Below the pieces are notes generated by a model. The model was given only the letters and a program-made list of their open reading frames with translations, was not told the origin of the DNA and made no database searches. Below are positions 2,771 through 17,061 of a stretch of 64,000 bases of DNA, piece by piece. Position numbers and translations under genes: made by a program. The DNA lies in the sequence record OM386658.1. One strand, 5' to 3'. This DNA is from Escherichia phage vB_EcoM_ESCO32. Position 1 is the stretch's first letter, and every line of letters begins with the position of its first letter.

Positions 2771-2968
2771 ATGATGCTAGATCAACTGATCAATGCTCCT
2801 CGCGTAACAGTAAGTCCAAAAACATTTGCATCACTTTTAGAAGATGCTAAAGAGGTTTATAACTTTACTGAAGAAGAGCTTCCTGTTCCTGTTGAAAAAG
2901 GTTCCAGATGGTTGTTTTATGAAGGTATTATTTTTACTGAAGGGAATAATTGGAAGGAGACTAAATGA
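2771..2968 (+). CDS. hypothetical protein
   Basis: Track ORF 2678..2968 trimmed to ATG 2771 preceded by AAGGAGG. Confidence 0.5.
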   Translation: MMLDQLINAPRVTVSPKTFASLLEDAKEVYNFTEEELPVPVEKGSRWLFYEGIIFTEGNNWKETK

Positions 2969-3954
2969 AATACTTAGTAACAGGTGGTTTAGGCTTTATT
3001 GGAAGTGCGGTAGTTCGTTTCCTGGCTAAAAATACTAAGAACGATATTTACGTTATAGATAAATGGGGTTACGCTTCAGATCCTAGAAATTTAGCAGAAA
3101 CACCTAATGTAAAGTTTTGTCGTGTTGACTTGACAAATGCGCAGGTAACTGCTAAGATTGTGGCAGATGTTAATCCAGATTATATAATGCATCTTGCAGC
3201 AGAAAGTCACGTAGATAATTCAATAGCATCACCGAGTGTTTTTATAAATTCAAATATTGTTGGGACATTTAATCTTCTAGAAGCTGTTCGTTTAATGGGA
3301 GATAAATCAAATCTTAAAATGTTCCATCATATTTCAACAGATGAAGTGTATGGTGATCTGGAAGAAGGGGATTATCCGTTTACAGAACAGAATCCTTATA
3401 AGCCAAGTAGTCCATATGCTGCATCTAAGGCAGCAAGCGATCATTTGGTAAGAGCGTGGCATCGTACTTATGGTATTCCGACAGTTATAACAAATTGTTC
3501 AAATAATTTTGGAGCATATCATCATCCAGAAAAACTAATACCTAAAACGATAACAAATATCTTGATGCATAAACCAATCCCTGTTTATGGCAATGGTCTT
3601 CAAGTAAGAGATTGGTTATACGTTGACGATCACGCAGAAGCATTACACCTAGTAGTAACTAAAGGCAAATCTGGAGAAACATATAATATTGGGAGCAGAA
3701 ACCCTAGAACTAATATTGATGTAATCTATATGATTTGTGATTATATGGATGCGGTGTATCCATCTGAAACAGATGCTTGTAGCCTCATTGAGATGGTTAC
3801 AGATAGACCTGGACATGATTTAAGATATGAAGTGAATCCTTATAAGATTGAAAAGGAATTAGGGTGGAAAGCTAAAGGCACATTTGAAGAAAAACTTTAT
3901 TCAACCATTGATTGGTATGTAGATAACAAAGAGTGGTGGGAAAATAAAGTTTAA
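2965..3954 (+). CDS. rmlB: dTDP-glucose 4,6-dehydratase
   Basis: 329 aa; N-terminal TGGLGFIGS Rossmann motif, YxxxK ([10 protein letters not shown]) catalytic motif, overall RfbB/RmlB-like. Confidence 0.9.
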
Positions 3955-3962
3955 GGAGGAGT

Positions 3963-4832
3963 ATGAAAGGTATTATCTTAGCAGGTGGTAGTGGAACAAG
4001 ACTTTACCCAGTTACTAAAGGGGTTAGTAAACAACTATTACCAATTTATGATAAGCCTATGATTTATTATCCGCTCTCTGTCCTAATGCTTTCTGGAATT
4101 AGGGAAATACTAATAATTACAACACCAGAAGATCAAATTAATTTTGTAAATCTTCTAGGTGATGGTTCTTCTTTTGGTATTTCCCTACAGTATGCAATAC
4201 AGGATAGCCCAAAAGGTTTAGCAGAAGCGTTTATTATTGGTGAGAACTTTATTGGTGAAGATTCTGTAGCACTTGTGCTAGGTGATAATTTATTCTTTGG
4301 TCAGAGTTTTGGTAGCATTTTAGATTCTGCTAAAGAACATATTGAAAAGAATGGTGGAGCTAATATTTTTGGGTATCACGTAAATGATCCTGAAAGATTT
4401 GGTGTTGTTGAGTTTGATTCTGAAGGTACAGTGGTGAGTATTGAAGAAAAACCAAAAGCACCAAAAAGCAACTACGCAATCACAGGCTTGTACTTTTACG
4501 ATAATTCTGTTATACAGAAAGCTAAGAGCGTTAAACCTTCTGCTAGAGGGGAGTTAGAGATTACAGATATAAATGAGATGTACTGGAAAGAAAAGACTTT
4601 ACGTGTCTGTAAACTAGGAAGAGGTTTCACTTGGCTGGATACAGGAACACATGAAAGTCTTATGGAAGCATCTCAATTTGTTCATGCAATAGAAAAGCAA
4701 CAAGGTATGAAGGTTGCATGCCTGGAAGAGATTGCTTTTAAAAATGAATGGATTACTTTAGACTCTGTAAAAAGTTCTGGAGAGGTTTTAAGTAAAACAG
4801 ACTACGGTAAGTATTTACTTAAATTAAAATAA
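3963..4832 (+). CDS. rmlA: glucose-1-phosphate thymidylyltransferase
   Basis: 289 aa; N-terminus [18 protein letters not shown]...[17 protein letters not shown] is the RmlA signature. Confidence 0.9.
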
Positions 4833-4844
4833 AGGGGGAATTAA

Positions 4845-5399
4845 ATGATTCAAGCAACAAAAATCGAAGATTTGTTGATCATTCAACCTGACGTTTACGG
4901 AGATGAACGTGGCTTTTTCTTAGAAAGTTTTAATCAGGCTTTATATGATCAATACATAGGTAAACAAAACTTTGTCCAAGATAACCATTCACGTTCTATT
5001 CGAGGAGTTCTACGTGGGCTTCATTTTCAAAAGAAAAACCCACAAGGGAAGTTAGTACGTTGTGTTCGTGGTGAAGTTTATGATGTTGCTGTAGATATTA
5101 GGGTTGGTAGTCCAACATTTGGAGAATGGGTAGGTGTTCTCTTATCTGAAAAGAATAAAACACAATTTTGGATTCCTCCTGGTTTCGCTCATGGCTTTGT
5201 TGTGATTAGTGACATTGCTGATTTTGAATATAAATGTACAGAATATTACGATCCGACTTCAGAGTGTAGTCTTGCGTGGAATGATCCAGATATCAATATT
5301 GATTGGGGTTTTGATTTAATCTTTAATGATATTAATTTTAAACCTATCTTGTCACAAAAAGATCAGGAAGCCAAAACACTAAAGGAGATCATATTTTGA
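4845..5399 (+). CDS. rmlC: dTDP-4-dehydrorhamnose 3,5-epimerase
   Basis: 184 aa cupin-type; RGFFLESF and RGLHFQ motifs typical of RmlC. Confidence 0.9.
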   Translation: MIQATKIEDLLIIQPDVYGDERGFFLESFNQALYDQYIGKQNFVQDNHSRSIRGVLRGLHFQKKNPQGKLVRCVRGEVYDVAVDIRVGSPTFGEWVGVLLSEKNKTQFWIPPGFAHGFVVISDIADFEYKCTEYYDPTSECSLAWNDPDINIDWGFDLIFNDINFKPILSQKDQEAKTLKEIIF

Positions 5400-6226
5400 C
5401 AAAATTTTTAATCTTTGGTTCAAAAGGTCAATTAGGACAATCTTTGGCAAAAGTTGCACCAGAAGATGTTATTTTGATTGAAGCAAGTGATATAGACATT
5501 ACCAACTTTAAAGATGTTATGAATAGTCTTGTACAGCACGTGCCTGATGTTGTTGTGAATTGTGCGGCTTACACGGCAGTAGATAAAGCTGAAGAAGATG
5601 TTAACACCTGTATAAATGTTAATGCATACGGTGCAACAAACATTGCCAAAGCATGTAATGATTTACTGATACAGTTTGTACATATTTCAACAGACTATGT
5701 TTTTGATGGGCATGTTGCTGGCACAGAAGATAGTAAAACAAACCCCTTGAACACCTACGGTTACAGTAAACAATTAGGTGAAACTTTAGTACAAACAGTT
5801 TGTCCTACAGCACTTACTATCAGAACAGCTTCTGTTTATAGTGAATTTGGACATAACTTTTTGAAAACTATGTTGGAACGCTACAACGGTGGTCAAAAAG
5901 AATTTAATGTAGTATGTGATCATTTGTCGTGTCCTACTTATGCACCTGATCTTGCAGAAACAATTTTTAAACTTGTAAAAGATGGTGTAAATAGTAAAAT
6001 TGTACACTATGCAGGTGCAGATTATATTTCTTGGTATGATTTTGCACGAAAGATATTTCTTGTTATAGATTTATCTGTTACAGTTAATCCTGTATCTGCT
6101 TCAACCTATAATTCCAAAGCAGTCAGACCAGCAACATCTTATTTAAAAACAGATCCTACTTTAAATCCGCGAAGTGTTGATAGCGGTATTGTAAGAACTT
6201 TAACTATACTTTTAAACAAGGAGTGA
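5396..6226 (+). CDS. rmlD: dTDP-4-dehydrorhamnose reductase
   Basis: 276 aa; TTG start overlapping rmlC stop, AAGGAG upstream; FGSKGQLGQ Rossmann motif, STDYVFDG motif as in RmlD. Confidence 0.85.
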   Translation: MTKFLIFGSKGQLGQSLAKVAPEDVILIEASDIDITNFKDVMNSLVQHVPDVVVNCAAYTAVDKAEEDVNTCINVNAYGATNIAKACNDLLIQFVHISTDYVFDGHVAGTEDSKTNPLNTYGYSKQLGETLVQTVCPTALTIRTASVYSEFGHNFLKTMLERYNGGQKEFNVVCDHLSCPTYAPDLAETIFKLVKDGVNSKIVHYAGADYISWYDFARKIFLVIDLSVTVNPVSASTYNSKAVRPATSYLKTDPTLNPRSVDSGIVRTLTILLNKE

Positions 6227-8472: not shown

Positions 8473-9122
8473 CAACAATTATTGCAACACATAACAAAAT
8501 TCTATCTGATGGTAAAGTAACAGTAGGTAATCGAGTAGACACTTTAAATTTCAAGAAAGTGCGTAAAATTGGGGATTACCTTGTTGGTGGTGCAGGACGT
8601 CTGTCTTCTATCCTGACTTTCTTTTCTTGGTTCGAACAAAACTTACAGTGCCAGGCAGCACAAGAGACAATCCCAGGTTTGGTGATCCAGTCAGATCCTG
8701 ATAAAGAAGATGAAGAGTTTGTGGCATTAGTTGTTCACCCAGACGGTAAAATTTATATGCACGAGGGTAACAATCCAACGCGAGCATATCCTTTAACTGA
8801 AGATTATTATGCTGTTGGTAGTGGGGCAGATTTTGCTTTAGCAGCTTTAGACGCTGGGGCAACCCCAGAAGAAGCGATGGAAGTTGCAAAACTGCGAGAT
8901 GCTTTTTCAGGCGGTGAAACTTTTATCGAAGAGATCGAAGAACAACTGGAGTTAACAGCGGAAGATATTCTGAACTTCAGCAAGGAGCAACTAATTAGTA
9001 TGCTGTTGACTGGTGATCCTGATAGTGATGAAGCTGAAAGTATTTTAGCAGAAATGAAAGAATCACAAGAAAAAGTATTGACAGTCTCTGAAAAACTTGA
9101 TAAAGTGTCCTCTGATAATTAA
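8469..9122 (+). CDS. HslV / proteasome beta-like Ntn-hydrolase peptidase with acidic C-terminal extension
   Basis: 217 aa; MTTII N-terminus (Thr directly after Met), KKVRKI, GGAGRLSSILTFFSWFEQNL and YAVGSGADFALAALDAG align with HslV TTIV...KKVRRL...GFAGGTADAFTLFELFE...IAIGSGGPYAQAAA; about 70 extra acidic C-terminal residues. Confidence 0.6.
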   Translation: MTTIIATHNKILSDGKVTVGNRVDTLNFKKVRKIGDYLVGGAGRLSSILTFFSWFEQNLQCQAAQETIPGLVIQSDPDKEDEEFVALVVHPDGKIYMHEGNNPTRAYPLTEDYYAVGSGADFALAALDAGATPEEAMEVAKLRDAFSGGETFIEEIEEQLELTAEDILNFSKEQLISMLLTGDPDSDEAESILAEMKESQEKVLTVSEKLDKVSSDN

Positions 9123-9130
9123 TCTAGTAT

Positions 9131-9152
9131 AAACCCCCGCAAGGGGGTTATT
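9131..9152 (+). terminator. rho-independent terminator
   Basis: CCCCC-GCAA-GGGGG hairpin followed by TTATT. Confidence 0.55.
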
Positions 9153-9162
9153 AGGAGGAGAT

Positions 9163-9591
9163 ATGTTACCAGTACCTGTAATCTTTGTAGAAAAAGCCTA
9201 CTACTCTTTAGAACAAAATTGTAAAAGAGCTAAAAATTTTATTGAAAGTTTAGCAGAACAGCGTTACACTGTATCTAAAAAGGGATGGTTCAGAACTTCA
9301 CAATATTTAGTCAACCCTTTCGGAGAAGTTCGTGTGTTGTATGGCAACACAGAAAATATCTTAGAAAGAATGTTAGAACTAGACAGGATCTCCTCCTGTG
9401 ATTATCAACTGTTGAAATTTTACGATGTGTCAGAAAACGTTAAAAACTTTCTTGATGACTTATGTAAACGAAAAACAGAAGAAGATACAATACCAGTATC
9501 TATGGAAGAATTAACGTTCTTAAGAGATATTATGGTTTTTGAAGAAAACCCTGAAATCACAAAAGAGGAGATTTTAAGTAGTGGCAAATAA
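9163..9591 (+). CDS. hypothetical protein
   Basis: Track ORF; AGGAGGAG SD. Confidence 0.6.
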   Translation: MLPVPVIFVEKAYYSLEQNCKRAKNFIESLAEQRYTVSKKGWFRTSQYLVNPFGEVRVLYGNTENILERMLELDRISSCDYQLLKFYDVSENVKNFLDDLCKRKTEEDTIPVSMEELTFLRDIMVFEENPEITKEEILSSGK

Positions 9592-10090
9592 GTATGATCG
9601 TCCACCAACTGATTACTATCCTACTCCACAAAAATGTATAAATGCATTATTTAGTGTAATAGATTTTAATAACCTTAAAGAAGAAGGTTTTATTTTTGCA
9701 GAACCGTGTAAAGGCGCTGCTGCTGCAATTTATCAACATTTTCCAGAAGGATCAGAATATTGTGAGTTAGAAGAAGGGAAGGATTATTTTAACCACGAAT
9801 GGCATACTAAGCCGGATATTATAATCACAAATCCACCATTCAGACTTGCACTTGAGTTCTTGCAAAAGAGCTTAAAAGAAGCAGACGTTTGCATATACTT
9901 GTTGCGTCTTGGGTTCCTAGAGTCTATTAAACGAAGGGAATTCCATAAACAGAATCCACCAACAAATTTGATTGTTCTTTCTGAACGACCATCTTTTGTT
10001 GCAGGTGGTACTGATAAGACAGCATATGCTTGGTACGTCTACGACCCAAAAAACAGGCTGGGTTTAACTCAACCTTTCTATTTTGTTTAA
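9581..10090 (+). CDS. putative DNA N6-adenine (amino-) methyltransferase
   Basis: 169 aa, GTG start; NPPF catalytic tetrapeptide (motif IV) downstream of YYPTP and AEPCKGAAAA AdoMet-like segment. Confidence 0.55.
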   Translation: MANKYDRPPTDYYPTPQKCINALFSVIDFNNLKEEGFIFAEPCKGAAAAIYQHFPEGSEYCELEEGKDYFNHEWHTKPDIIITNPPFRLALEFLQKSLKEADVCIYLLRLGFLESIKRREFHKQNPPTNLIVLSERPSFVAGGTDKTAYAWYVYDPKNRLGLTQPFYFV

Positions 10091-10103
10091 GAGGAGCATT
10101 TTT

Positions 10104-10334
10104 ATGACCGAGAAATTTATTGTTACTATGGAACTCACCTTTGATGAAGAAGATTTTGATCTTCATGTATCAACTAAAGCAGATAACATTCACACAACAC
10201 AGAGTGTTGCAATCGCTATGTTCTTTAAGCAAGCAATTGCAAAACAAGCTGAAGTGTGTGCTGGTTTAGCTGTAGAGTACGCAGAAGTTGTCAAGGTTCT
10301 TGAAAGTGCTCGCAACAACGATTGGGATGAATAA
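10104..10334 (+). CDS. hypothetical protein
   Basis: Track ORF 10083..10334 trimmed to ATG 10104 after GAGGAG. Confidence 0.5.
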   Translation: MTEKFIVTMELTFDEEDFDLHVSTKADNIHTTQSVAIAMFFKQAIAKQAEVCAGLAVEYAEVVKVLESARNNDWDE

Positions 10335-10537
10335 TGGCATACAATTACTATCTGGTATATTTTAACGAAACTAAGAAAAAAGACACAGGAACTAATGTTT
10401 ATGCGGAATCCGAAGAACACGCAAAAGCTATTGGTTCAGTGCTTCTTTCTAGAATAGCAGGTGAAGAAATTCCTGTAGAGGCTATCTTTGCAGAAGTTGA
10501 CCCTGATATTCAAGAAGATGATATTACCACTACTTAA
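10334..10537 (+). CDS. hypothetical acidic protein
   Basis: Track ORF; TAATG overlap with upstream stop. Confidence 0.45.
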   Translation: MAYNYYLVYFNETKKKDTGTNVYAESEEHAKAIGSVLLSRIAGEEIPVEAIFAEVDPDIQEDDITTT

Positions 10538-10540
10538 CTG

Positions 10541-10569
10541 TTGACTTTAACATTAAGGTAGTGCATACT
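10541..10569 (+). promoter_or_regulatory. sigma70-like promoter upstream of recombinase gene
   Basis: TTGACT - 17 nt - CATACT; approx. Confidence 0.4.
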
Positions 10570-10594
10570 TCCTGCAACAGAACAGGAGGGTATT

Positions 10595-11257
10595 ATGAAG
10601 TTTGTACTGTATCATCGACTTTCTAAGAAGAAACAACAAGGCAACCAGTATGGTATAGAATCACAGGAAGCAGATATCCAACGCTTCCTGGATTCACAAG
10701 AAAATTATACTATTGTAGGTAGCTTTGCAGAGTTTTATTCTGGTAAAGGCGATTGGAAGCAACGTAGAGAGCTTGTAAAAGCTGTTAATCTTTGCAAAGA
10801 AACAGGTGCTACACTTGTTGTTGCTAAGGTTGACCGTCTGGGACGTAACACAGCTTCTGTTGCAACCTTGTTAGAGATGATTAATGTACGGATAGCAACT
10901 ATGCCCTCCGCTGAAAATATGATAATAAATATTTTAGCAGTTCTGGCAGAAGAAGAGGCTCGTGCAATATCTGATCGTGTTAAGAAGAGCCTTAAGGTAG
11001 CAAAAGCGAAGGGAACGCTTCTTGGTGCAGCAAACCCTAAATACAAAAGAACAGATTATACGAAAACGGAAGAAGCAAAACGCTCAAGAGAGTTTGCGCT
11101 TTCTTTAAAAGATTCTTTAGTTGCATACAGAGCTTGTAAAACGCCATATATGACGATTGCAAAGCATCTGAATGAATCAGGAAAGAGAACTATTCGTGGG
11201 AGTTTGTTCGATGCCAAAGCGGTACAACGTCTTTGTGCAAAATTGAATATTAAATAA
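10595..11257 (+). CDS. serine recombinase (resolvase/invertase family)
   Basis: 220 aa; N-terminal YHRLSKKKQ with catalytic Ser, VAKVDRLGRN matches the resolvase DRLGR motif, AVLAEEEARAISDRVKKSLKVAKAKG region, C-terminal HTH-like tail. Confidence 0.8.
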   Translation: MKFVLYHRLSKKKQQGNQYGIESQEADIQRFLDSQENYTIVGSFAEFYSGKGDWKQRRELVKAVNLCKETGATLVVAKVDRLGRNTASVATLLEMINVRIATMPSAENMIINILAVLAEEEARAISDRVKKSLKVAKAKGTLLGAANPKYKRTDYTKTEEAKRSREFALSLKDSLVAYRACKTPYMTIAKHLNESGKRTIRGSLFDAKAVQRLCAKLNIK

Positions 11258-11266
11258 GGAGGAAAC

Positions 11267-11470
11267 ATGGCAGTTCAATCTTTTGAGGAGACTGTTAAAA
11301 AACAATTCCTATCGAAGCGAGCGATGGTTGAATTTTTGCATTTTCTCGAAGTAGATAGGGTACTTATTGAGACTACACCAGATGGTAACTGGCAAGTCTC
11401 GTATATTGCCACCAGGCATATCGTAGACAGTACGAAAGAAGAAAGTTCGGAAGTTACGGTTGCTAGTTAA
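11267..11470 (+). CDS. hypothetical protein
   Basis: Track ORF; AAGGAGG SD. Confidence 0.55.
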   Translation: MAVQSFEETVKKQFLSKRAMVEFLHFLEVDRVLIETTPDGNWQVSYIATRHIVDSTKEESSEVTVAS

Positions 11471-11481
11471 AGGAGTTAAAT

Positions 11482-12054
11482 ATGCGTTTAGCTTTTAACG
11501 GGAAGATAAGCACAGCAAACATATTGTCAGCAGTAGGATTATTAGGTAAAAAATTCACACCTTTCAGTTTACCAGTTTGTGTAGATTTTGATCATGTGTT
11601 TGATATTAATAATCCTTCACGTTGTATCGCCAGAAGTAATATTGATAACCCAAGTGAAAATCTGTTTTATATTACTAAACCATCCCAAGCAATTTTGAAT
11701 CAATGGGAAGCAGGTCTGATTAAACCAGGTAAATATTTTGCATTACTACCTTGTAAATCATTGGCTATAGAGGACAGTCTAAACTATGCAAACAATCTTG
11801 TTGTTACAGCATTCATTGTCTCAGAAAAAGAAGAAACTGCGGCACTTGCAAACACTGTTAAATCTTTGTATGATGCTTTGGGTGTTACTTACACTACCTT
11901 CGTTTGTGAAGATATTCCACATTGCGTTGAATTCGTGGTGAATGGTGTAACTGTATGTCGTGTAGAAACAACTCAAGACGAAGACGTTTTTATTACTGTA
12001 GCCGATGTAATATCTGAACCTGTGTTTAGTTACGCAGTTTCATTAACACATTAA
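11482..12054 (+). CDS. hypothetical protein
   Basis: Track ORF; AAAGGAG SD. Confidence 0.6.
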   Translation: MRLAFNGKISTANILSAVGLLGKKFTPFSLPVCVDFDHVFDINNPSRCIARSNIDNPSENLFYITKPSQAILNQWEAGLIKPGKYFALLPCKSLAIEDSLNYANNLVVTAFIVSEKEETAALANTVKSLYDALGVTYTTFVCEDIPHCVEFVVNGVTVCRVETTQDEDVFITVADVISEPVFSYAVSLTH

Positions 12055-12064
12055 GGAGAAGGGG

Positions 12065-12391
12065 ATGAAAATAACGACAGAACAGGCTTTAATAGACAAA
12101 GGAAGGGAAATCTTAGAAAGTCATTTGGAGGATATTCAAAGGACTCCAGGGTATCTCGGCTGGCGTATACAAGAAGCCGTCGATTTTCTACCCCGTAAAA
12201 ATAAAGAGATTGAAGTAAGATCTCTATTCCTCCTTGTTAAAGTAGATGGTGACGCTATATACAAAGATGTAGCGTCTCACATTGAACAAATAGAAGAAAA
12301 AGCCTACAAAGAATTTGCAGATCTTGTTGTAGAACATAATATAGAAGGTAAAGTTAATATCTTTATACTTATGGATTTTGAGGAGAGTTGA
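12065..12391 (+). CDS. hypothetical protein
   Basis: Track ORF; AAGGAG SD. Confidence 0.6.
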   Translation: MKITTEQALIDKGREILESHLEDIQRTPGYLGWRIQEAVDFLPRKNKEIEVRSLFLLVKVDGDAIYKDVASHIEQIEEKAYKEFADLVVEHNIEGKVNIFILMDFEES

Positions 12392-13134
12392 TGTTAGTAT
12401 ATCAAGAAATTAGTGTAAAAGATGATCAAGACCTGTTTATTATTGGTGATTTACATGGTTGCTTTGATTTGTATCAGAAGGGTGTTAATACTTTAGGTAT
12501 CCGAGATCAAGATGTTGTTGTATCTTTAGGAGATCTTACAGATCGCGGCAAGCAGAATTTTCGTTGTGTTGTTGAATTCACCAGAAAGCTAAATCGTTAT
12601 GGTATTCGTGGAAATCATGAAGATATGATGATTAAAGGGTTGCTAGAAGGTGATAGACGATATTACGAATGTTGGTTTCAGAACGGAGGCCATACAGTTC
12701 TAGACGAGTGTGGAGAAGAGGGTGCAACTGCTCTTGCTTTGATGCTAGAAGATTTACCTGTTGTACTTGTTGTCAATTATCGTAATATGAAACTAGGCTT
12801 TATTCACGGTGGGTATCCTTCAGTTTTGGAACATTTACCAGTAACAGAAGTTTTGCCATTTTGTTTGAATATGAATAAAGAGCAAGTTTCTCGATTCACA
12901 GAATCTTTAATGTGGGATCGTGATATGATAGATTGCGCACTTGAAGGGATTCTTCTTCCTAGGGTTTCAGGAGTAGATTATGTATTTCACGGGCATTCTT
13001 ATGTTCCTAAACCTGTAATTAGCAGTAATAGGGTATATATGGACACAGGATCTTGCTTCAATGGTAATTTAACCTTTGCATATTTTGATGATTCAAATAC
13101 GTTACAATTTTATTCTACTTTAGAGGAGGATTAA
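12391..13134 (+). CDS. Ser/Thr protein phosphatase (calcineurin-like metallophosphoesterase, lambda-PPase type)
   Basis: Motifs GDLHGC, GDLTDRG, GNHE in canonical order; ATG 12391 after GAGGAG. Confidence 0.8.
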   Translation: MLVYQEISVKDDQDLFIIGDLHGCFDLYQKGVNTLGIRDQDVVVSLGDLTDRGKQNFRCVVEFTRKLNRYGIRGNHEDMMIKGLLEGDRRYYECWFQNGGHTVLDECGEEGATALALMLEDLPVVLVVNYRNMKLGFIHGGYPSVLEHLPVTEVLPFCLNMNKEQVSRFTESLMWDRDMIDCALEGILLPRVSGVDYVFHGHSYVPKPVISSNRVYMDTGSCFNGNLTFAYFDDSNTLQFYSTLEED

Positions 13135-13454
13135 TGTATAAAATCACAATTAAAGAAACAGTAGGAGAACTTACGAAAGAAACTACTATTGAGACGGAAG
13201 ATGTTGAGTTAGTCCAAGAGCTTTTATTTCCAAAACCAGAAATAAAAGACAATGATGAACAGTTGGATGAAGATAATGAGACAGCAAGGGATAAATGGAA
13301 GAAACAATTAGCGGAGATTTGGAAAAAGCCTGAAGTAACTCCTCCATACGATCCTCGTAGACCTTATTATCCTTGGGAAATTGGAAGCCCTTGGTTTACG
13401 TACCCTATTACTCCAATTGTTAATCCAATTGTTACTCCCAATATTACTTGTTAA
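13134..13454 (+). CDS. hypothetical Pro-rich protein
   Basis: Track ORF; GGAGG SD. Confidence 0.5.
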   Translation: MYKITIKETVGELTKETTIETEDVELVQELLFPKPEIKDNDEQLDEDNETARDKWKKQLAEIWKKPEVTPPYDPRRPYYPWEIGSPWFTYPITPIVNPIVTPNITC

Positions 13455-13464
13455 GGAGAAAACC

Positions 13465-14043
13465 ATGAGCGATTTATTCTACACAGGTGTTGGTAGCAGA
13501 GATATTACAGACGAAGAATGGGATACTATGGTATCTGTTGCAAAATGGTTATCTACATGGTTCATTTTGCGGTCTGGTAAAGCAGAAGGTGCAGATTCCG
13601 CATTTGAATGCGGGGTATATGATAGTGGGAACAATACGAAGAAAGAAATATACATCCCTTGGCTCTCGTTTAAAGGTAATGAGATAGAGGGAGAGGTTAT
13701 TGTTCTTGACAGACCAGATAGTGTAAACTATGCTTTAACCTTACAATATGCAAAAGAATTGCATCCAGCTTGGGACAGATTATCTCAAGGTGCTAAAAAA
13801 TTACATCAAAGAAATATCCACCAAGTTCTTGGAAGAGATCTTGAGAATCCAAAACCATCTTGTTTTCTTTTAGCTTGTGCAAATACAGATAAAAATGGAG
13901 ATCCTTTAGGTGGTACAAGAACAGCTTGGATGTTGGCTAAAAAGTTTAATGTCCCTTGTTTTAATATTCGAGGTAAAAGTAAAAAACAAATTTTCGAATT
14001 TATTAAGCCTATTTTAGAGGAGAATGGTCTTGTCCAGAAATAA
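13465..14043 (+). CDS. DprA/Smf-like (SLOG Rossmann) protein
   Basis: Track ORF trimmed to ATG 13465 after AAGGAG; GVGSRDITDEE...LRSGKAEGADSAFE fits the GSR...SG.A.G.D pattern of DprA/LOG-type Rossmann domains. Confidence 0.5.
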   Translation: MSDLFYTGVGSRDITDEEWDTMVSVAKWLSTWFILRSGKAEGADSAFECGVYDSGNNTKKEIYIPWLSFKGNEIEGEVIVLDRPDSVNYALTLQYAKELHPAWDRLSQGAKKLHQRNIHQVLGRDLENPKPSCFLLACANTDKNGDPLGGTRTAWMLAKKFNVPCFNIRGKSKKQIFEFIKPILEENGLVQK

Positions 14044-14548
14044 TATAAGCGTCATTAAAGATAGTTTTATTGATGTAACAAACGATATTGTACCTACAAT
14101 ACAATATATAGTTGAGGCACAAGGTTTAAACTTTATACGTGATAAAGTTAAGATTGTTTTTCATAACACTCCAGGTTTTGTAATAGTAGATTCAACAAAA
14201 ACGATGTATCCTACAGATCTGATTACTTTAGACAAAAACTTAACACAAGAAGAAGTAGAAATTCTTAACCTCTATTGGTTAGGTTTTAAAAGATACGAGG
14301 ATACAGCTTTATCCCGAATGTCAACTATTTTAGCTAACATTCTGGTTCGGAAAATTTCTAAACTATGGGATGAAGAAAACCCAGATGAAATAGTTTTACA
14401 CTTTGCTAAACCGGAAGACGGGGCATATGATATAGACACATCTGAAATGGCTTACGGGTTTATTATTTCTGGTAATGTATTACAGATGGAATCTTTATTG
14501 TATGTTGAGACAGTAAAACACAATAACAACTACGAGGAGGTTGTATGA
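14024..14548 (+). CDS. hypothetical protein
   Basis: Track ORF; SD is very close to ATG 14024, so in-frame TTG 14030 may be the true start. Confidence 0.5.
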   Translation: MVLSRNNISVIKDSFIDVTNDIVPTIQYIVEAQGLNFIRDKVKIVFHNTPGFVIVDSTKTMYPTDLITLDKNLTQEEVEILNLYWLGFKRYEDTALSRMSTILANILVRKISKLWDEENPDEIVLHFAKPEDGAYDIDTSEMAYGFIISGNVLQMESLLYVETVKHNNNYEEVV

Positions 14549-14802
14549 AAGGTTTAGAGTTTAACTTTGTAGATGCGTGGGAAGGATGGGATGAACTAGG
14601 AGTAGGGGATTTATGTTTTTATGATGTTACCTTGAAGGAAGAATACAAACATCTAGCTCCTAGTGAAGATTGCGATGTGATTCTATCTATCCTATTAAGT
14701 CAGTCTATAGTGCAATTTGATTTTCTAAAAGGTAGTGAGTGTATTGAAAGTAAAGCATTCCGTTTAGAAGTTTCTCTTGGTGAAGAAGTTCCTGTAGAAT
14801 AA
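14545..14802 (+). CDS. hypothetical protein
   Basis: Track ORF; GAGGAGG SD. Confidence 0.55.
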   Translation: MKGLEFNFVDAWEGWDELGVGDLCFYDVTLKEEYKHLAPSEDCDVILSILLSQSIVQFDFLKGSECIESKAFRLEVSLGEEVPVE

Positions 14803-14805
14803 TAT

Positions 14806-14829
14806 AAACCCGCTTCGGCGGGTTTTTTG
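14806..14829 (+). terminator. rho-independent terminator
   Basis: CCCGC-TTCG-GCGGG hairpin plus TTTTTT. Confidence 0.65.
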
Positions 14830-14858
14830 TTGACAACACCAGTTTTTTCGAATAAACT
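14830..14858 (+). promoter_or_regulatory. sigma70-like promoter
   Basis: TTGACA - 17 nt - TAAACT directly after the terminator, about 25 nt before gene 14885. Confidence 0.45.
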
Positions 14859-14884
14859 ACAGAAAAACAGAAGAGGAGATTAGC

Positions 14885-15295
14885 ATGTATTATAGTGATT
14901 ATTTTGTAAACCCAACAAAAGAACAACTTCAATCAGCAGTGGATAAGATGCAGATTGTAGTTAAAGAATGTGAGAAAATAAGAAAACAACTACAAGAAGA
15001 GACTGTTGTTGCTAATAAATGGTTTGGTCTTAAGAAGAAAGTTGTTAGTAAACACGATATCATCCTTGAAAAAGCAAAAACGACAGGAACTAGTTACGCC
15101 TTACAAGCCTTGTTACTAAATTACATTGATATAGAACAACATTCTCTTCTGCACTGTTGGCTTAACAGCCCTGGTATTGAGGATCTCTTGTTCTGGTTAT
15201 CGTGTGAATCTGTACTTTTAAATGAGAATGAGGCTTATCGTTTAAACTTCTGCCTCAAGGCAGAATTACCAGCTAGTGTTAAGGAGAAGAAGTAA
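14885..15295 (+). CDS. hypothetical protein
   Basis: Track ORF; AGAGGAG SD. Confidence 0.6.
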   Translation: MYYSDYFVNPTKEQLQSAVDKMQIVVKECEKIRKQLQEETVVANKWFGLKKKVVSKHDIILEKAKTTGTSYALQALLLNYIDIEQHSLLHCWLNSPGIEDLLFWLSCESVLLNENEAYRLNFCLKAELPASVKEKK

Positions 15296-15297
15296 TA

Positions 15298-16287
15298 ATG
15301 AAAGTTTTAAGTCTTTTTGATGGTATGTCAGGAGGAATGCTTGCGCTAAAAAGTGCAGGTATTGAAGTAGATACATATTATGCTTCAGAATTAGACAAAT
15401 TCGCCATAGCTGAAAGCCAAGCAAATTTTCCAGATATTATTCAGTTAGGTGATGTTACAAAATGGAGAGAATGGGATATTCCGTGGGGAGAAATTGATCT
15501 TTTGTTAGGTGGTAGTCCGTGTCAAGGCTTCTCTTCTTCTGGTAAGGGTTTGAACTTTCAAGATCCGCGATCTAAGCTATTCTTCGAATATGTTGAGATT
15601 CTTGAACATATTAAAAAGTTTAACCCTAATGTTAAGTTCATGCTTGAAAACGTTAAGATGAAAGTGGAGTGGGAAAACGTGATCACAAGTTACTTAGGTG
15701 TTGATCCCGTATTCATTAACTCCGCAGATTTCACGGCACAAAATAGACAACGTTTATACTGGTGCAACTGGGAAATAAAACCTTGGGATATTACCAATGA
15801 AGTGTTGCAAGATATCATTGAAGATGATAGTATCGTAGACAGAGATAAGGCTTATTGCATAGATGCAAATTATGCCAAAGGTGGTAATATAGAACAGTAT
15901 TTTGAAAAGAGTCGCAGACAACTGGTTTTTTATCCGGCAGCAATATATGGGCGTAGAATTAATGAAAATGGTAAACGTAGTACATCTAAAACTGATCGTT
16001 TGGTACATTGTTTGGAAGTTCAGGACAGTGAAAAAACTCGTTGCCTCACGACTGTGCCTAAAGACGTACTATTAGCCTACATTCCACCTGGAAGATATCT
16101 AGATGCCTTTGAAAAATTGAGTGAAGGCGTACATTATAGAAAGTTAACGGTTAAAGAGTGTTGCCGCTTGCAAGGTGTGCCAGATGATTACTTTAAAGTG
16201 AGTAGTAACACACAAGCATATAAGATGTTAGGCAATGGTTGGACTATACCTGTCATTGCACATATTCTTAAATGTATGGAGGAATAA
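15298..16287 (+). CDS. DNA (cytosine-5)-methyltransferase
   Basis: 329 aa; motif I LSLFDGMSGG, motif IV GGSPCQGFS, motif VI ENV, C-terminal RLQGVPDDY and GNGW. Confidence 0.85.
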   Translation: MKVLSLFDGMSGGMLALKSAGIEVDTYYASELDKFAIAESQANFPDIIQLGDVTKWREWDIPWGEIDLLLGGSPCQGFSSSGKGLNFQDPRSKLFFEYVEILEHIKKFNPNVKFMLENVKMKVEWENVITSYLGVDPVFINSADFTAQNRQRLYWCNWEIKPWDITNEVLQDIIEDDSIVDRDKAYCIDANYAKGGNIEQYFEKSRRQLVFYPAAIYGRRINENGKRSTSKTDRLVHCLEVQDSEKTRCLTTVPKDVLLAYIPPGRYLDAFEKLSEGVHYRKLTVKECCRLQGVPDDYFKVSSNTQAYKMLGNGWTIPVIAHILKCMEE

Positions 16288-16409
16288 TGGAAACATTGTG
16301 GAAAGGCTGGAAGACTGCTCTGATAGCTTTTATAATTCCATTAACTTTTCTTGGTTGGTGTTTTTGGGAATTTATCTTTTGGTTAATTTCCCATATACAT
16401 TGGGGGTAA
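16287..16409 (+). CDS. small hydrophobic peptide, 40 aa
   Basis: ORF below threshold, TAATG overlap with methyltransferase stop; predicted TM helix. Confidence 0.35.
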   Translation: METLWKGWKTALIAFIIPLTFLGWCFWEFIFWLISHIHWG

Positions 16410-16410
16410 T

Positions 16411-17019
16411 ATGACTCAAAAAGTTGCATATCAAGTAGATCGTGAAGATGGTGAAGGTAGTGTTGTAGTTTTTGATACACATGGCCTTGCAGCAAGACGC
16501 AAAGGAGCTTGTCTACTGGACATTGGTGGTGAAGATGAATACTGCACTGTACGTAGAGTAAAAGAATTTGATCAATATGCTGAAAAAGGTTTTGTACCTG
16601 TGAAAGCACTATTAGAAGCTGGATGGTGGATACCTAGTGCACATGATTATGATATTTTGGAAGATACAGATGAATTCAACAGCGAGGATTTTGTTTTTTC
16701 TCTGGATGAAAAATGCGTTTGGAAAGACTGGGATGAAATGGAACGCCATGCTTATTTTATAAACGAAGCATTAGATCGTAAAACTTGGTTTGAAAATACA
16801 GTTAAAGCAGCGTATCCTCAATTTACTTTTACACAGTTTTGGGGTGGCCCACATCATATTACTCATACAGCATATTTCGAGTTCCCAGGTTCACGTTATA
16901 AAGGTACTGTTTATTGGGATTGGGACGAGGACAAAGAACCTTCTGCTCAAGACTTCCGTTGCTATGTTTGTCAAGGTGATCAAGAAGCCCTTGACAAGTA
17001 CCTTAAAAGTCTGGTATAA
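16411..17019 (+). CDS. hypothetical protein
   Basis: Track ORF. Confidence 0.6.
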   Translation: MTQKVAYQVDREDGEGSVVVFDTHGLAARRKGACLLDIGGEDEYCTVRRVKEFDQYAEKGFVPVKALLEAGWWIPSAHDYDILEDTDEFNSEDFVFSLDEKCVWKDWDEMERHAYFINEALDRKTWFENTVKAAYPQFTFTQFWGGPHHITHTAYFEFPGSRYKGTVYWDWDEDKEPSAQDFRCYVCQGDQEALDKYLKSLV

Positions 17020-17035
17020 TCCGTAAAACTTAACC

Positions 17036-17061
17036 AAAGCCCCCAGGCAGGGGCTTTATTT
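17036..17061 (+). terminator. rho-independent terminator
   Basis: GCCCC-caggca-GGGGC hairpin plus TTTATTT. Confidence 0.55.

What the first reader, a model, noticed from the sequence alone, without database searches (positions are those of the whole stretch)
9581..16287. Two DNA methyltransferases of different specificity classes in one module
A small NPPF-type amino-methyltransferase (9581..10090) and a full motif-bearing C5-cytosine methyltransferase (15298..16287) lie 5 kb apart with no cognate restriction endonuclease evident. C5-methylation capacity implies the phage DNA carries ordinary cytosine rather than a T4-style hypermodified base, which fits the apparent absence of glucosylation genes but contrasts with the rml operon.
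Basis: partly seen in the sequence, partly recalled or inferred. Interest (0 to 1): 0.45.

Follow-up and report, generated by a model that had tools for sequence, protein, structure and literature searches.

The report
Two solitary methyltransferases in phi92-like phage
This stretch of a phi92-like E. coli phage does encode a cytosine-C5 DNA methyltransferase and a very small adenine-type methyltransferase without partner nucleases, but both genes are already annotated in dozens of public genomes, so the finding is real and ordinary.

Summary
The window is a phi92-like E. coli myophage (Justusliebigvirus), about 98.8% identical to VEcB, outra and EmilieFrey. Both ORFs exist exactly as described.

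ORF 15298-16287 is a full-length C5-cytosine DNA methyltransferase (PF00145, E=1.4e-43) with every catalytic motif. ORF 9581-10090 is a 169-aa bare catalytic domain of the gamma-type (N/D)PP(F/Y) amino-methyltransferase kind. It has no target-recognition domain and no Pfam, NCBIfam or PDB sequence hit. It belongs to a very large phage family (PHROG 799; 13,214 cluster representatives).

No nuclease partner was detected, and flanking ORFs do not co-travel with either gene.

The two genes are not one functional module. They lie in separate predicted transcription units and have different evolutionary histories.

The "ordinary cytosine" inference is indirectly supported by three things:
- published hypersensitivity of these phages to restriction;
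- extreme avoidance of palindromic restriction sites;
- no ThyA-type hydroxymethylase or TET detected.

The "no glycosylation genes" statement fails genome-wide. Near-identical relatives carry four glycosyltransferases and a third, beta-class methyltransferase outside the window.

Target sequences remain unknown, and it is not settled whether the small enzyme acts on DNA or RNA.

Both genes are already annotated publicly and mentioned in the literature, so interest is low.

The parts
9581..10090 (+). Small (169 aa) TRD-less gamma-type amino-methyltransferase. Motifs: D11-x-Y13-P-T15-P16, F39-x-E41-P-C-K-G45, E62, D68-Y69, N84-P-P-F87, R136-P-S-F.
15298..16287 (+). Canonical C5-cytosine DNA methyltransferase (329 aa). 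Motif I at 6-13, PCQ at 74-76 (Cys75), ENV at 117-119, QNRQR at 148-152, variable/TRD region about 156-280, motif IX about 281-298, GNG at 312-314.
   Evidence: PF00145 at 1.4e-43 over the full length. TIGR00675. PHROG 116 at 2.2e-74. Motif positions. Model pLDDT 81.6. Best structural matches are DNMT3A/B/C catalytic domains and M.HaeIII.
9163..9591 (+). 142-aa ORF of unknown function whose stop overlaps the GTG start of the small methyltransferase by 11 nt. Context only.
   Evidence: PHROG 15078, unknown function. No homologue beside distant methyltransferase homologues. No PADLOC hit.
9078..9106 (+). Promoter-like site (TTGACA-17-TAAAGT, TG) upstream of ORF142 and the small methyltransferase. 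Prediction only.
   Evidence: consensus scan; the total number of such sites does not exceed shuffles.
14806..14825 (+). Terminator-like G+C hairpin with T-run that separates the small-methyltransferase block from the C5 block. Prediction only.
   Evidence: 14 terminator-like sites against 6.5 +/- 2.1 in shuffles.
14830..14858 (+). Promoter-like site (TTGACA-17-TAAACT) directly upstream of ORF136 and the C5 methyltransferase. Prediction only.
14885..15295 (+). 136-aa backbone ORF immediately upstream of the C5 gene. Not a methylase partner.
   Evidence: PHROG 16551, unknown function. Homologues in Phapecoctavirus and Klebsiella relatives that lack this C5 gene.
16411..17019 (+). 202-aa acidic (pI 4.6) backbone ORF downstream of the C5 gene. 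Not a cognate endonuclease.
   Evidence: PHROG 8514, unknown function. pI. Present in 68 Phapecoctavirus records, and in a Pseudomonas siphophage replication module with no methylase nearby. No PADLOC hit.
17036..17057 (+). Terminator-like hairpin closing the predicted C5 transcription unit. Prediction only.

Best explanation
These are two independent, solitary ('orphan') phage methyltransferases expressed from the early/metabolic gene block. They most likely methylate the phage's own, otherwise canonical DNA after replication, masking a limited set of sequence motifs from host restriction enzymes.

The 329-aa enzyme is a conventional SAM-dependent C5-cytosine DNA methyltransferase. Cys75 of the PCQ motif attacks C6 of a flipped-out cytosine. 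Glu117 (ENV) and Arg150/Arg152 (QxRxR) assist, and the methyl group goes to C5. The region from about 156 to 280 sets a still unknown target sequence.

The 169-aa enzyme is a minimal gamma-type amino-methyltransferase. It binds SAM through F-x-E-P-C-K-G, E62 and D68-Y69. It most probably transfers the methyl group to the exocyclic N6 of an adenine held in the N-P-P-F pocket. It has no separate recognition domain, so any specificity must come from loops of the catalytic domain itself.

Shown: gene presence, family or fold assignment, intact catalytic motifs, no detectable partner gene, and different phylogenetic distributions. Inferred: activity, DNA as the small enzyme's substrate, the anti-restriction role, and the target motifs.
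For: C5 enzyme:
- Full-length PF00145 and TIGR00675 matches above the curated cut-offs.
- All motifs present.
- Predicted fold matches DNMT3 and M.HaeIII catalytic domains.
- Best PADLOC matches are type II, Druantia DruM and orphan methyltransferase models.

Small enzyme:
- Near-invariant motifs in gamma order across 32 and 47 homologues.
- Profile alignments place Y/F-TP, motif I and NPPF in register with PacII and StySJI M subunits.
- Weak Pfam hits of family members fall mostly on DNA adenine methylase families: EcoRI_methylase 9, Eco57I 7, Dam 6, N6_Mtase 3.
- Distant homologues sit among other phage DNA methylases. In L009 it lies between PF05869 and PF02086 genes. In L014 a PF00145 gene lies 2 kb downstream.

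Orphan status.

Canonical DNA under restriction pressure:
- 22 of 64 six-bp palindromes are absent genome-wide (for example AAGCTT 0 against 46.5 expected), and GGWCC is 0 against 46.5.
- The same holds in the window alone, with 24 of 64 absent.
- Published restriction sensitivity (PMC8594841).
Against: - No methylome or biochemical data exist for either enzyme in the searchable literature.
- Phi92-like and rV5-like phages, all of which carry the small enzyme, are strongly restricted by six adenine-methylation-based systems (EcoKI, EcoCFT_I, EcoRI, EcoRV, EcoCFT_II, EcoP1_I). Whatever it does, it gives no broad protection.
- The small protein reaches no curated family threshold.
- The C5 recognition region is modelled with low confidence and matches no enzyme of known specificity.
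Confidence: 0.65

Rival explanations
1. The 169-aa protein is not a DNA methylase. It is an RNA N6-adenine methyltransferase (METTL5/PH1948-like or TrmN6/TrmM-like) that modifies host or phage tRNA or rRNA during infection.
For: - Phages of this supergroup carry large tRNA clusters (15 tRNAs in VivaForever).
- The enzyme gives no visible protection against adenine-methylation-sensitive restriction systems.
- One GenBank record names it tRNA A37 N6-methylase.
- A few family members weakly hit MTS, UPF0020 and RrnaAD models.
Against: - Most weak Pfam hits of the family are to DNA adenine methylases.
- Homologues occur inside clusters of DNA methylases in small phage contigs.
- Homologues also occur in small phages such as Vibrio PV94 (34 kb) and Roseburia Shimadzu (45 kb).
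- Profile alignments to PDB sequences favour DNA methylases.
Confidence: 0.2
2. The C5 methyltransferase is the first step of a post-replicative cytosine hypermodification pathway. 5mC would be oxidised and then glycosylated, perhaps rhamnosylated, using the rmlBACD operon and the four glycosyltransferases. This would parallel the phage C5-MT/TET/GT clusters.
For: - A known precedent exists (PMC8256090; bioRxiv 10.1101/2023.12.21.572611).
- An rmlB-A-C-D operon lies 9 kb upstream in the DNA-metabolism block.
- Four glycosyltransferases lie next to primase/helicase and DNA polymerase in relatives. One has a sub-threshold TAGT hit (23.3 bits against 27.5).
- Olsen et al. speculated about rhamnosylated nucleotides (PMC7552041).
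Against: - No TET/JBP or 2OG-dioxygenase domain lies within +/-10 kb of the C5 gene, or among the larger proteins I scanned across the genome.
- The glycosyltransferases are about 58 kb from the C5 gene, not clustered with it.
- Phapecoctaviruses have the rml pathway (PMC7552041) but not this canonical C5 enzyme.
- The phages are highly restriction-sensitive and have purged restriction sites.
- GpC-containing sites are purged, unlike what GpC-wide modification would predict.
Confidence: 0.05
3. One or both methylases serve a regulatory role for the phage rather than anti-restriction. Examples would be timing of packaging, replication or gene expression, as Dam methylation does at the P1 pac site (established knowledge).
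For: - There is no measurable protection against the six restriction systems tested.
- The small gene is conserved as a core gene across a whole supergroup at 45-87% identity. That fits a housekeeping role better than an arms-race role.
Against: - There is no direct evidence.
- Strong restriction-site avoidance shows that restriction is a major selective force on this genome.
- The C5 slot is variable between genera, which is typical of arms-race genes.
Confidence: 0.08
4. The C5 gene is part of a complete restriction-modification system whose endonuclease is an unrecognised neighbouring ORF (ORF136 or ORF202).
For: - ORF136, the C5 gene, a 40-aa ORF and ORF202 appear to form one transcription unit.
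- Type II endonucleases often lack detectable homology.
Against: - ORF202 and ORF136 homologues exist in Phapecoctavirus, where they flank a different, truncated methylase-like gene.
- An ORF202 homologue sits in a Pseudomonas phage with no methylase nearby.
- Neither ORF accompanies the 60%-identical C5 homologue in L008.
- ORF202 is acidic, pI 4.6.
- No PADLOC or Pfam nuclease hits.
Confidence: 0.02

Closest known systems
Solitary phage C5-cytosine DNA methyltransferases (PF00145; PHROG 116), as in Vibrio siphophages and the jumbo phages 121Q, PBECO4 and GAP32
   Same: Same domain, all ten-motif landmarks, stand-alone gene in a phage early or replication region. 45-52% identity to those phage enzymes and about 60% to metagenomic homologues that share the conserved variable region.
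   Different: Target sequence unknown. Within the rV5/phAPEC8/phi92 supergroup only the phi92-like genus has this full-length version.
E. coli Dcm / M.EcoRII (CCWGG); the gene is annotated 'Dcm-like' in BASEL records
   Same: Same enzyme class. CCWGG is one of the few GC-containing quasi-palindromes not avoided in the genome (187 sites, O/E 0.93, against GGWCC 0 of 46.5).
   Different: Not an orthologue. NF007772 scores 29.9 bits against a cut-off of 710, and only motifs IX-X align to Dcm structures. The 'Dcm-like' label says nothing about specificity.
DNMT3A/3B/3C catalytic domains
   Same: Best sequence matches (E about 1e-23) and best structural matches (Foldseek E about 1e-20, TM about 0.65-0.75) among solved structures. 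Shares the S-L-F-D-G motif I and the W-(S/T)-(V/I)-P-V-I motif X flavour.
   Different: The margin over M.HaeIII and M.HhaI is small (1e-22). The phage enzyme has a longer, unrelated variable region. CpG-containing restriction sites are purged from the genome, which argues against CpG-wide methylation.
Gamma-class N6-adenine DNA methyltransferases (M.TaqI, M.EcoRI, Eco57I/MmeI methylase domains, type I HsdM)
   Different: Only 169 aa, with no target-recognition domain and no specificity subunit nearby. Below every curated family threshold.
Small phage Dam-type methylases of Pfam PF05869 (about 170-180 aa)
   Same: Comparable size, phage-borne, solitary. 6 of 47 family members weakly hit PF05869, and a PF05869 gene neighbours a homologue in L009. 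From memory, members of this family were described as lacking a separate recognition domain. That is a lead, not a test.
   Different: The window protein itself does not hit PF05869. GATC specificity is untested.
METTL5 / PH1948 (COG2263) rRNA m6A methyltransferases
   Different: Sequence similarity is marginal (E about 0.7 with the family profile). The genomic company is DNA methylases.

Membership tests
C5-cytosine DNA methyltransferase (Pfam PF00145 / TIGR00675) | Score above the curated threshold over the full-length model | tested here: met
   150 bits against 22, profile positions 1-322 of 324. TIGR00675 at 141.4 bits against 100.65.
C5-cytosine DNA methyltransferase (Pfam PF00145 / TIGR00675) | Catalytic motifs: I (FxGxG-type), IV (P-C with nucleophilic Cys), VI (ENV), VIII (QxRxR), X (GNx) | tested here: met
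   LFDGMSGG at 6, PCQ at 74, ENV at 117, QNRQR at 148, GNG at 312. These residues are invariant in 45 homologues.
C5-cytosine DNA methyltransferase (Pfam PF00145 / TIGR00675) | Methyl transfer to C5 of cytosine in DNA | not testable with these tools
   Needs bisulfite or EM-seq, or LC-MS.
E. coli Dcm / EcoRII-type methylase (NCBIfam NF007772) | Score above the subfamily cut-off | tested here: not met
   29.9 bits against a cut-off of 710, C-terminal motifs only.
Gamma-class N6-adenine DNA methyltransferase | Motif order X-like (Y/F-TP), then I, then IV, with (N/D)PP(Y/F) | tested here: met
   YPTP at 13, EPCKG at 41, NPPF at 84. Near-invariant in the family. In register with PacII-M and StySJI-M.
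Gamma-class N6-adenine DNA methyltransferase | Class-I SAM methyltransferase fold resembling known members | tested here: met
Gamma-class N6-adenine DNA methyltransferase | Membership in a curated model (PF02384, PF07669, PF13651 or an NCBIfam) | tested here: not met
   No Pfam or NCBIfam hit for the window protein. Only some relatives give weak hits.
Gamma-class N6-adenine DNA methyltransferase | C-terminal target-recognition domain or separate specificity subunit | tested here: not met
   The 169-aa model is a bare Rossmann domain. No conserved neighbouring gene.
Gamma-class N6-adenine DNA methyltransferase | DNA (not RNA) substrate, N6-adenine product | not testable with these tools
   Fold hits split between DNA and RNA m6A enzymes.
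PHROG 799 (phage 'DNA methyltransferase') | Significant profile match | tested here: met
   E=1.7e-56, residues 2-163.
Type II restriction-modification system | Cognate endonuclease gene adjacent to and co-inherited with the methylase | tested here: not met
   No nuclease models hit the neighbours. Neighbours are not conserved beside homologues. ORF136 and ORF202 occur without this methylase.
Phage C5-MT / TET / glycosyltransferase hypermodification cluster | TET/JBP (5mYOX) dioxygenase encoded next to the C5 methylase | tested here: not met
   None within +/-10 kb. None among the additional proteins scanned genome-wide in a near-identical relative.
Phage C5-MT / TET / glycosyltransferase hypermodification cluster | DNA glycosyltransferase in the same gene cluster | tested here: not met
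   The four glycosyltransferases lie about 58 kb away in VivaForever (129.6-132.8 kb against 70.7 kb). One has a sub-threshold TAGT hit.
T4-type pre-replicative cytosine hypermodification | ThyA-family dCMP hydroxymethylase | tested here: not met
   The only thymidylate-synthase-like gene matches ThyX (PF02511). This was tested on the near-identical relative, not on the unseen remainder of this exact genome.
T4-type pre-replicative cytosine hypermodification | Resistance of phage DNA to classical restriction | tested here: not met
   Published: phi92-like phages are 'exceptionally susceptible' (PMC8594841). The genome also shows extreme restriction-site avoidance.

The most novel reading that the evidence does not exclude
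The 169-aa protein represents a very large family (over 13,000 clusters at 50% identity) of TRD-less minimal amino-methyltransferases that has never been characterised and has no Pfam model. Its real substrate or recognition mode may be unusual. It could be tRNA or rRNA m6A methylation by a phage, or DNA methylation whose sequence reading is done entirely by the catalytic domain, with a Zn-ribbon insertion in some members. This would explain why a gene conserved across the whole rV5/phAPEC8/phi92 supergroup gives no protection against six adenine-methylation-based restriction systems.
Probability: 0.25. Interest if true: 0.45.

Novelty: already known. Interest (0 to 1): 0.15.

Why it matters
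Its importance is limited. Orphan methyltransferases are common in phages. These two are already annotated in many GenBank records, for example Bas61_0203 and Bas61_0190. The BME3 paper discusses them in silico.

Three points from this work are useful:
1. Corrections to the public picture. There are three real methylases, not two or four. One 'DNA methyltransferase' annotation is in fact an XkdF-type prohead protease. 'Dcm-like' is not an orthology statement.
2. Sequence-based evidence that this therapeutically used, broad-host-range phage group relies mainly on restriction-site avoidance, with site-limited methylation, and not on base hypermodification.
3. A pointer to a very large minimal methyltransferase family with no biochemical characterisation found in the searchable literature.

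Knowing the methylation motifs would help predict which hosts restrict these phages.

Tried and rejected
1. Specificity of the C5 enzyme from homology. Sequence and structure searches align only the catalytic core (DNMT3, M.HaeIII, M.HhaI). The variable region is poorly modelled (pLDDT below 50 at 177-208) and unmatched, so no motif could be assigned.

2. Specificity from genome statistics. Purging of CpG- and GpC-containing six-mers, GGCC, CCGG and GGWCC argues against those targets. CCWGG, GCNGC, GCGC and GATC are not avoided. This is only permissive evidence, and the avoidance may predate acquisition of the gene.

3. A specificity partner or nuclease for either enzyme. No neighbour is conserved.

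4. TET/JBP or hydroxymethylase. None found in Pfam scans of 30 proteins from the complete relative (including 10 previously unannotated ones), or in the precomputed Pfam context. Small ORFs and proteins under about 150 aa were not all scanned. A 200-aa protein with a faint cupin hit (L005:27691-28293, E=0.0036) upstream of the glycosyltransferases could not be modelled because it lies outside the window.

5. A published methylome for phi92-like phages. None found. The original phi92 genome paper is not held in the library.

6. The 'fourth methyltransferase' of relatives (VivaForever CDS0029). Rejected: it is a Peptidase_S78_2 / XkdF-like protease.

Full report
**Identity of the window.** Megablast of window 9000-17000 finds 53 phage records covering at least 80% of the query. 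The best are 98-99% identical: Escherichia phages VEcB, outra, EmilieFrey/Bas61, phi92 and others of genus Justusliebigvirus, subfamily Stephanstirmvirinae. The window is collinear with phage VivaForever, with window position plus 55,362 giving the record position.

**The observation.** Both ORFs exist as stated.
- ORF 15298-16287 (329 aa) matches PF00145 end to end (E=1.4e-43) and TIGR00675.
- It carries motif I (LFDGMSGG at 6), PCQ at 74 (Cys75), ENV at 117, QNRQR at 148 and GNG at 312.
- ORF 9581-10090 (169 aa, GTG start overlapping the upstream ORF by 11 nt) contains NPPF at 84.
- It has no Pfam, NCBIfam or PDB sequence hit. It does match PHROG 799 'DNA methyltransferase' at 1.7e-56.
- A motif scan of all ORFs in the 64-kb window finds no further methyltransferase.

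**What the small protein is.**
- A word-indexed search returned 237 homologues, nearly all of the best-scoring ones 160-200 aa and without any Pfam domain.
- An exhaustive profile search found 13,214 cluster representatives at E<=1e-3 and 6,571 at E<=1e-10. Nearly all of the best 150 are 160-220 aa.
- Alignments show near-invariant D-x-Y-x-T-P, F-x-E-P-C-x-G, E62, D68-Y69, I-I-T-N-P-P-F, R-P-S-F and T-D-x-x-x-Y-A-W-x-x-W-D. Some members carry a Cys-rich insertion after RPSF.
- The AlphaFold model is confident (pLDDT 90.6) and is a bare Rossmann domain.
- A family profile against PDB sequences gives only marginal hits (E>=0.014). They are to DNA adenine methylases, with Y/F-TP, motif I and NPPF in register.
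- Of 47 diverse members, the weak Pfam hits are EcoRI_methylase 9, Eco57I 7, Dam PF05869 6, MTS 5, N6_Mtase 3, UPF0020 2 and RrnaAD 1.

By established motif rules, NPPF favours N6-adenine over N4-cytosine, which usually has SPPY. It works like a gamma-type adenine methylase. It is not a member of any curated family, and it lacks the recognition domain that defines the characterised members.

**DNA or RNA?** Distant homologues sit in phage early or replication regions, often with other DNA methylases. In L009 it lies between a PF05869 Dam and a PF02086 methylase. In L014 a PF00145 gene is 2 kb downstream. No neighbouring ORF is conserved, so there is no candidate specificity subunit.

Against a broad DNA role stands the BASEL study. 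It reports that Vequintavirinae and phi92-like phages are 'exceptionally susceptible' to restriction. The six systems tested were EcoKI, EcoCFT_I, EcoRI, EcoRV, EcoCFT_II and EcoP1_I. By established knowledge, all of these are blocked by adenine methylation. All these phages carry the small gene. It therefore cannot be a non-specific DNA adenine methylase acting on phage DNA.

I put DNA m6A with a restricted motif at roughly 0.6 and RNA m6A at roughly 0.2.

**The C5 enzyme.**
- The best solved relatives by sequence are the DNMT3A/B catalytic domains (1e-23), narrowly ahead of M.HaeIII and M.HhaI (1e-22).
- The predicted structure (pLDDT 81.6, variable region 177-208 below 50) again matches DNMT3A/B/C (E about 1e-20, TM 0.65-0.75), then M.HaeIII.
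- Only the catalytic core aligns, so no specificity can be read.
- The 'Dcm-like' label in BASEL records is not orthology: NF007772 scores 29.9 bits against a cut-off of 710.
- Forty-four homologues at about 57-84% identity conserve much of the variable region (K184, C187, A190, K194, G196, N197, Y201, R206) and probably share one target.

**Orphan status.**
- No nuclease model in Pfam, PHROGs or PADLOC hits any ORF around either gene.
- The 60%-identical C5 homologue in an unrelated 85-kb phage-like contig has different neighbours.
- ORF136 and ORF202, which flank the C5 gene, have homologues in Phapecoctavirus. There they flank a different 227-aa gene annotated 'Dcm'. That gene has no Pfam hit. 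It aligns weakly (E=0.003) to motifs I, IV (PPC) and VI (ENP) of the window enzyme and is too short to hold the C-terminal half.
- An ORF202 homologue also sits in a Pseudomonas siphophage replication module with no methylase nearby.
- ORF202 is acidic, pI 4.6.

A cognate endonuclease is very unlikely.

**One module?** Both genes are on the + strand in the early/metabolic block, which also holds RNR, rmlBACD, glutaredoxin, endolysin, PhoH, an HslV-like protease, a serine recombinase, a phosphatase, a DprA-like protein and Sir2. Consensus scans place a terminator-like hairpin at 14806-14825. It is followed at once by a promoter-like site at 14830-14858, and another hairpin lies at 17036-17057. 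These are predictions only.

Phylogenetic distributions differ.
- The small gene is at 95% identity or more in phi92-likes, 80-90% in 76 other records (the sampled ones mostly Phapecoctavirus-type phages), and 45-52% in rV5-like and related Klebsiella, Cronobacter and Salmonella phages.
- The canonical C5 gene is at 95% or more only in 54 phi92-like records. It then drops to 52% or less in Vibrio phages, jumbo phages and Bacteroides phages.

They are two independent genes that happen to lie 5 kb apart.

**Ordinary cytosine?** The logic holds: a post-replicative C5 methylase needs cytosine in DNA. I also found strong independent sequence evidence.
- In the complete relative, 22 of 64 six-bp palindromes are absent. 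Examples: AAGCTT 0 against 46.5 expected, AGTACT 0 against 21.9, CAGCTG 0 against 21.2, GGTACC 0 against 21.0, GGATCC 0 against 19.5, and CTGCAG 1 against 32.
- GGWCC is 0 against 46.5, GGYRCC is 2 against 49.8, and GGCC is 46 against 129.
- GATC, CCWGG, GCNGC, GAATTC and GATATC are at expectation.
- The window alone shows the same, with 24 of 64 absent and a summed expectation of 116.5.

Such purging implies DNA that restriction enzymes can read, as the BASEL phenotypes show. It also argues against CpG-wide or GpC-wide methylation by the C5 enzyme. One caveat applies: the avoidance may be older than the gene.

**Glycosylation genes.** The rmlB-A-C-D operon at 2965-6226 is real. Outside the window, near-identical genomes carry four consecutive glycosyltransferases just upstream of primase/helicase and DNA polymerase I. 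One has a sub-threshold hit to TET-associated glycosyltransferases.

The only thymidylate-synthase-like gene is ThyX-type, not a ThyA-type hydroxymethylase. No TET/JBP or 2OG-dioxygenase domain was found near the C5 gene or among the 30 proteins I scanned from the complete relative.

Glycosyltransferases are present, but no hydroxymethylase was detected. What the rml and glycosyltransferase genes glycosylate remains open. Olsen et al. speculated about nucleotides (PMC7552041), and BASEL notes that the machinery gives no restriction protection. The known C5-MT/TET/GT pathway (PMC8256090) is a weak rival here.

**Methyltransferase complement.** The BME3 paper states four methyltransferase CDSs (PMC12210895), and VivaForever annotates four.
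- One of them (159 aa, in the head module) is actually an XkdF-like prohead protease, PF14550.
- The 243-aa gene after DNA polymerase I is a true beta-class PF01555 enzyme with DPPY.

The real count is three: one m5C enzyme and two predicted adenine methylases.

**Verdict.** However, the genes are already annotated and discussed, and the arrangement is typical of large lytic phages. The residual interest lies in the minimal methyltransferase family, for which I found no biochemical characterisation, and in the unexplained rml and glycosyltransferase genes.

Noticed in passing
whole window (also L003-L005 = complete relative PP925843): Extreme avoidance of palindromic restriction sites. 24 of 64 six-bp palindromes are absent from the window (summed expectation 116.5), and 22 of 64 are absent from the 146-kb genome (HindIII 0 against 46.5, PstI 1 against 32, ScaI, PvuII, KpnI, BamHI, NcoI, PvuI and others). 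GGWCC is 0 against 46.5. EcoRI, EcoRV, XbaI, BglII, GATC and CCWGG are at expectation, which matches the published sensitivity to EcoRI and EcoRV.
   Followed up: yes
window 2965-6226 (+): A complete rmlB-rmlA-rmlC-rmlD (dTDP-L-rhamnose) operon sits inside the nucleotide-metabolism block, between the RNR small subunit and glutaredoxin. Its acceptor substrate in a lytic phage is unknown. The literature only speculates.
   Followed up: partly
L005 29644-32820 (PP925843 129644-132820; about 10 kb beyond the window end): Four consecutive glycosyltransferase genes lie directly upstream of primase/helicase and DNA polymerase I. One has a sub-threshold hit to TET-associated glycosyltransferase PF20691 (23.3 bits against 27.5). 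No TET or hydroxymethylase was found to feed them.
   Followed up: partly
L005 40148-40879 (PP925843 140148-140879): A third genuine DNA methyltransferase of the phage group: 243 aa, beta-class PF01555 (E=1.9e-30), DPPY at residues 27-30, located after DNA polymerase I and outside the window.
   Followed up: partly
L003 25778-26257 (-) (PP925843): The CDS annotated 'DNA methyltransferase' between the portal and head genes is an XkdF-like prohead serine protease (PF14550, E=2.5e-11). This is a probable mis-annotation, and it may contribute to the published count of four methyltransferases.
   Followed up: yes
L015 7702-8385 (Phapecoctavirus nepoznato MN850571 43701-44384): At the slot syntenic to the C5 gene, Phapecoctavirus carries a 227-aa 'Dcm' with no Pfam hit. 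It keeps motif I, a P-C dipeptide and an ENx motif, but is too short to hold the recognition region and motifs IX-X. It is a truncated, highly divergent C5-methylase-like protein of unknown activity.
   Followed up: partly
L005 18297-28293 (PP925843 118.3-128.3 kb; begins at about window 62,900 by the coordinate offset): A Ter-type stress gene cluster in a lytic phage: HAD hydrolase, ComF-like PRTase, Macro domain, TerC, TelA, vWA-TerF-like, TerD, then a 200-aa protein with a faint cupin hit. An endolysin and the glycosyltransferases follow.
   Followed up: no
window 10595-11257 (+): A serine recombinase / DNA invertase (PF00239, E=8e-22) lies between the two methyltransferases in a strictly lytic phage. 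No target inversion sites were looked for.
   Followed up: no
window 16991-17057 (+): A perfect sigma-70 consensus (TTGACA-18-TATAAT with an upstream TG) lies at the 3' end of ORF202. A strong G+C hairpin at 17036-17057 follows immediately, scoring as a terminator on both strands. The reverse arrangement (hairpin, then TTGACA) occurs at 14806-14858. These may be promoter/terminator cassettes separating small early operons.
   Followed up: no
window 15298-16287 (+): The catalytic core of the phage C5 enzyme is marginally closer to animal DNMT3A/B/C than to bacterial M.HaeIII or M.HhaI, both in sequence (1e-23 against 1e-22) and in predicted structure. Some metagenomic homologues are auto-named 'DNMT3A' by JGI. 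The margin is small and the PDB sample of bacterial enzymes is thin.
   Followed up: partly
A1 alignment columns about 175-215 (homologues P0061, P0073, P0077, P0088, P0094, P0100, P0106, P0117): A subset of small-methyltransferase homologues carries a 25-35-residue Cys-rich (CxxC...C..C-like) insertion after the RPSF motif. This may be a zinc ribbon serving as a minimal recognition element. The window protein lacks it.
   Followed up: no
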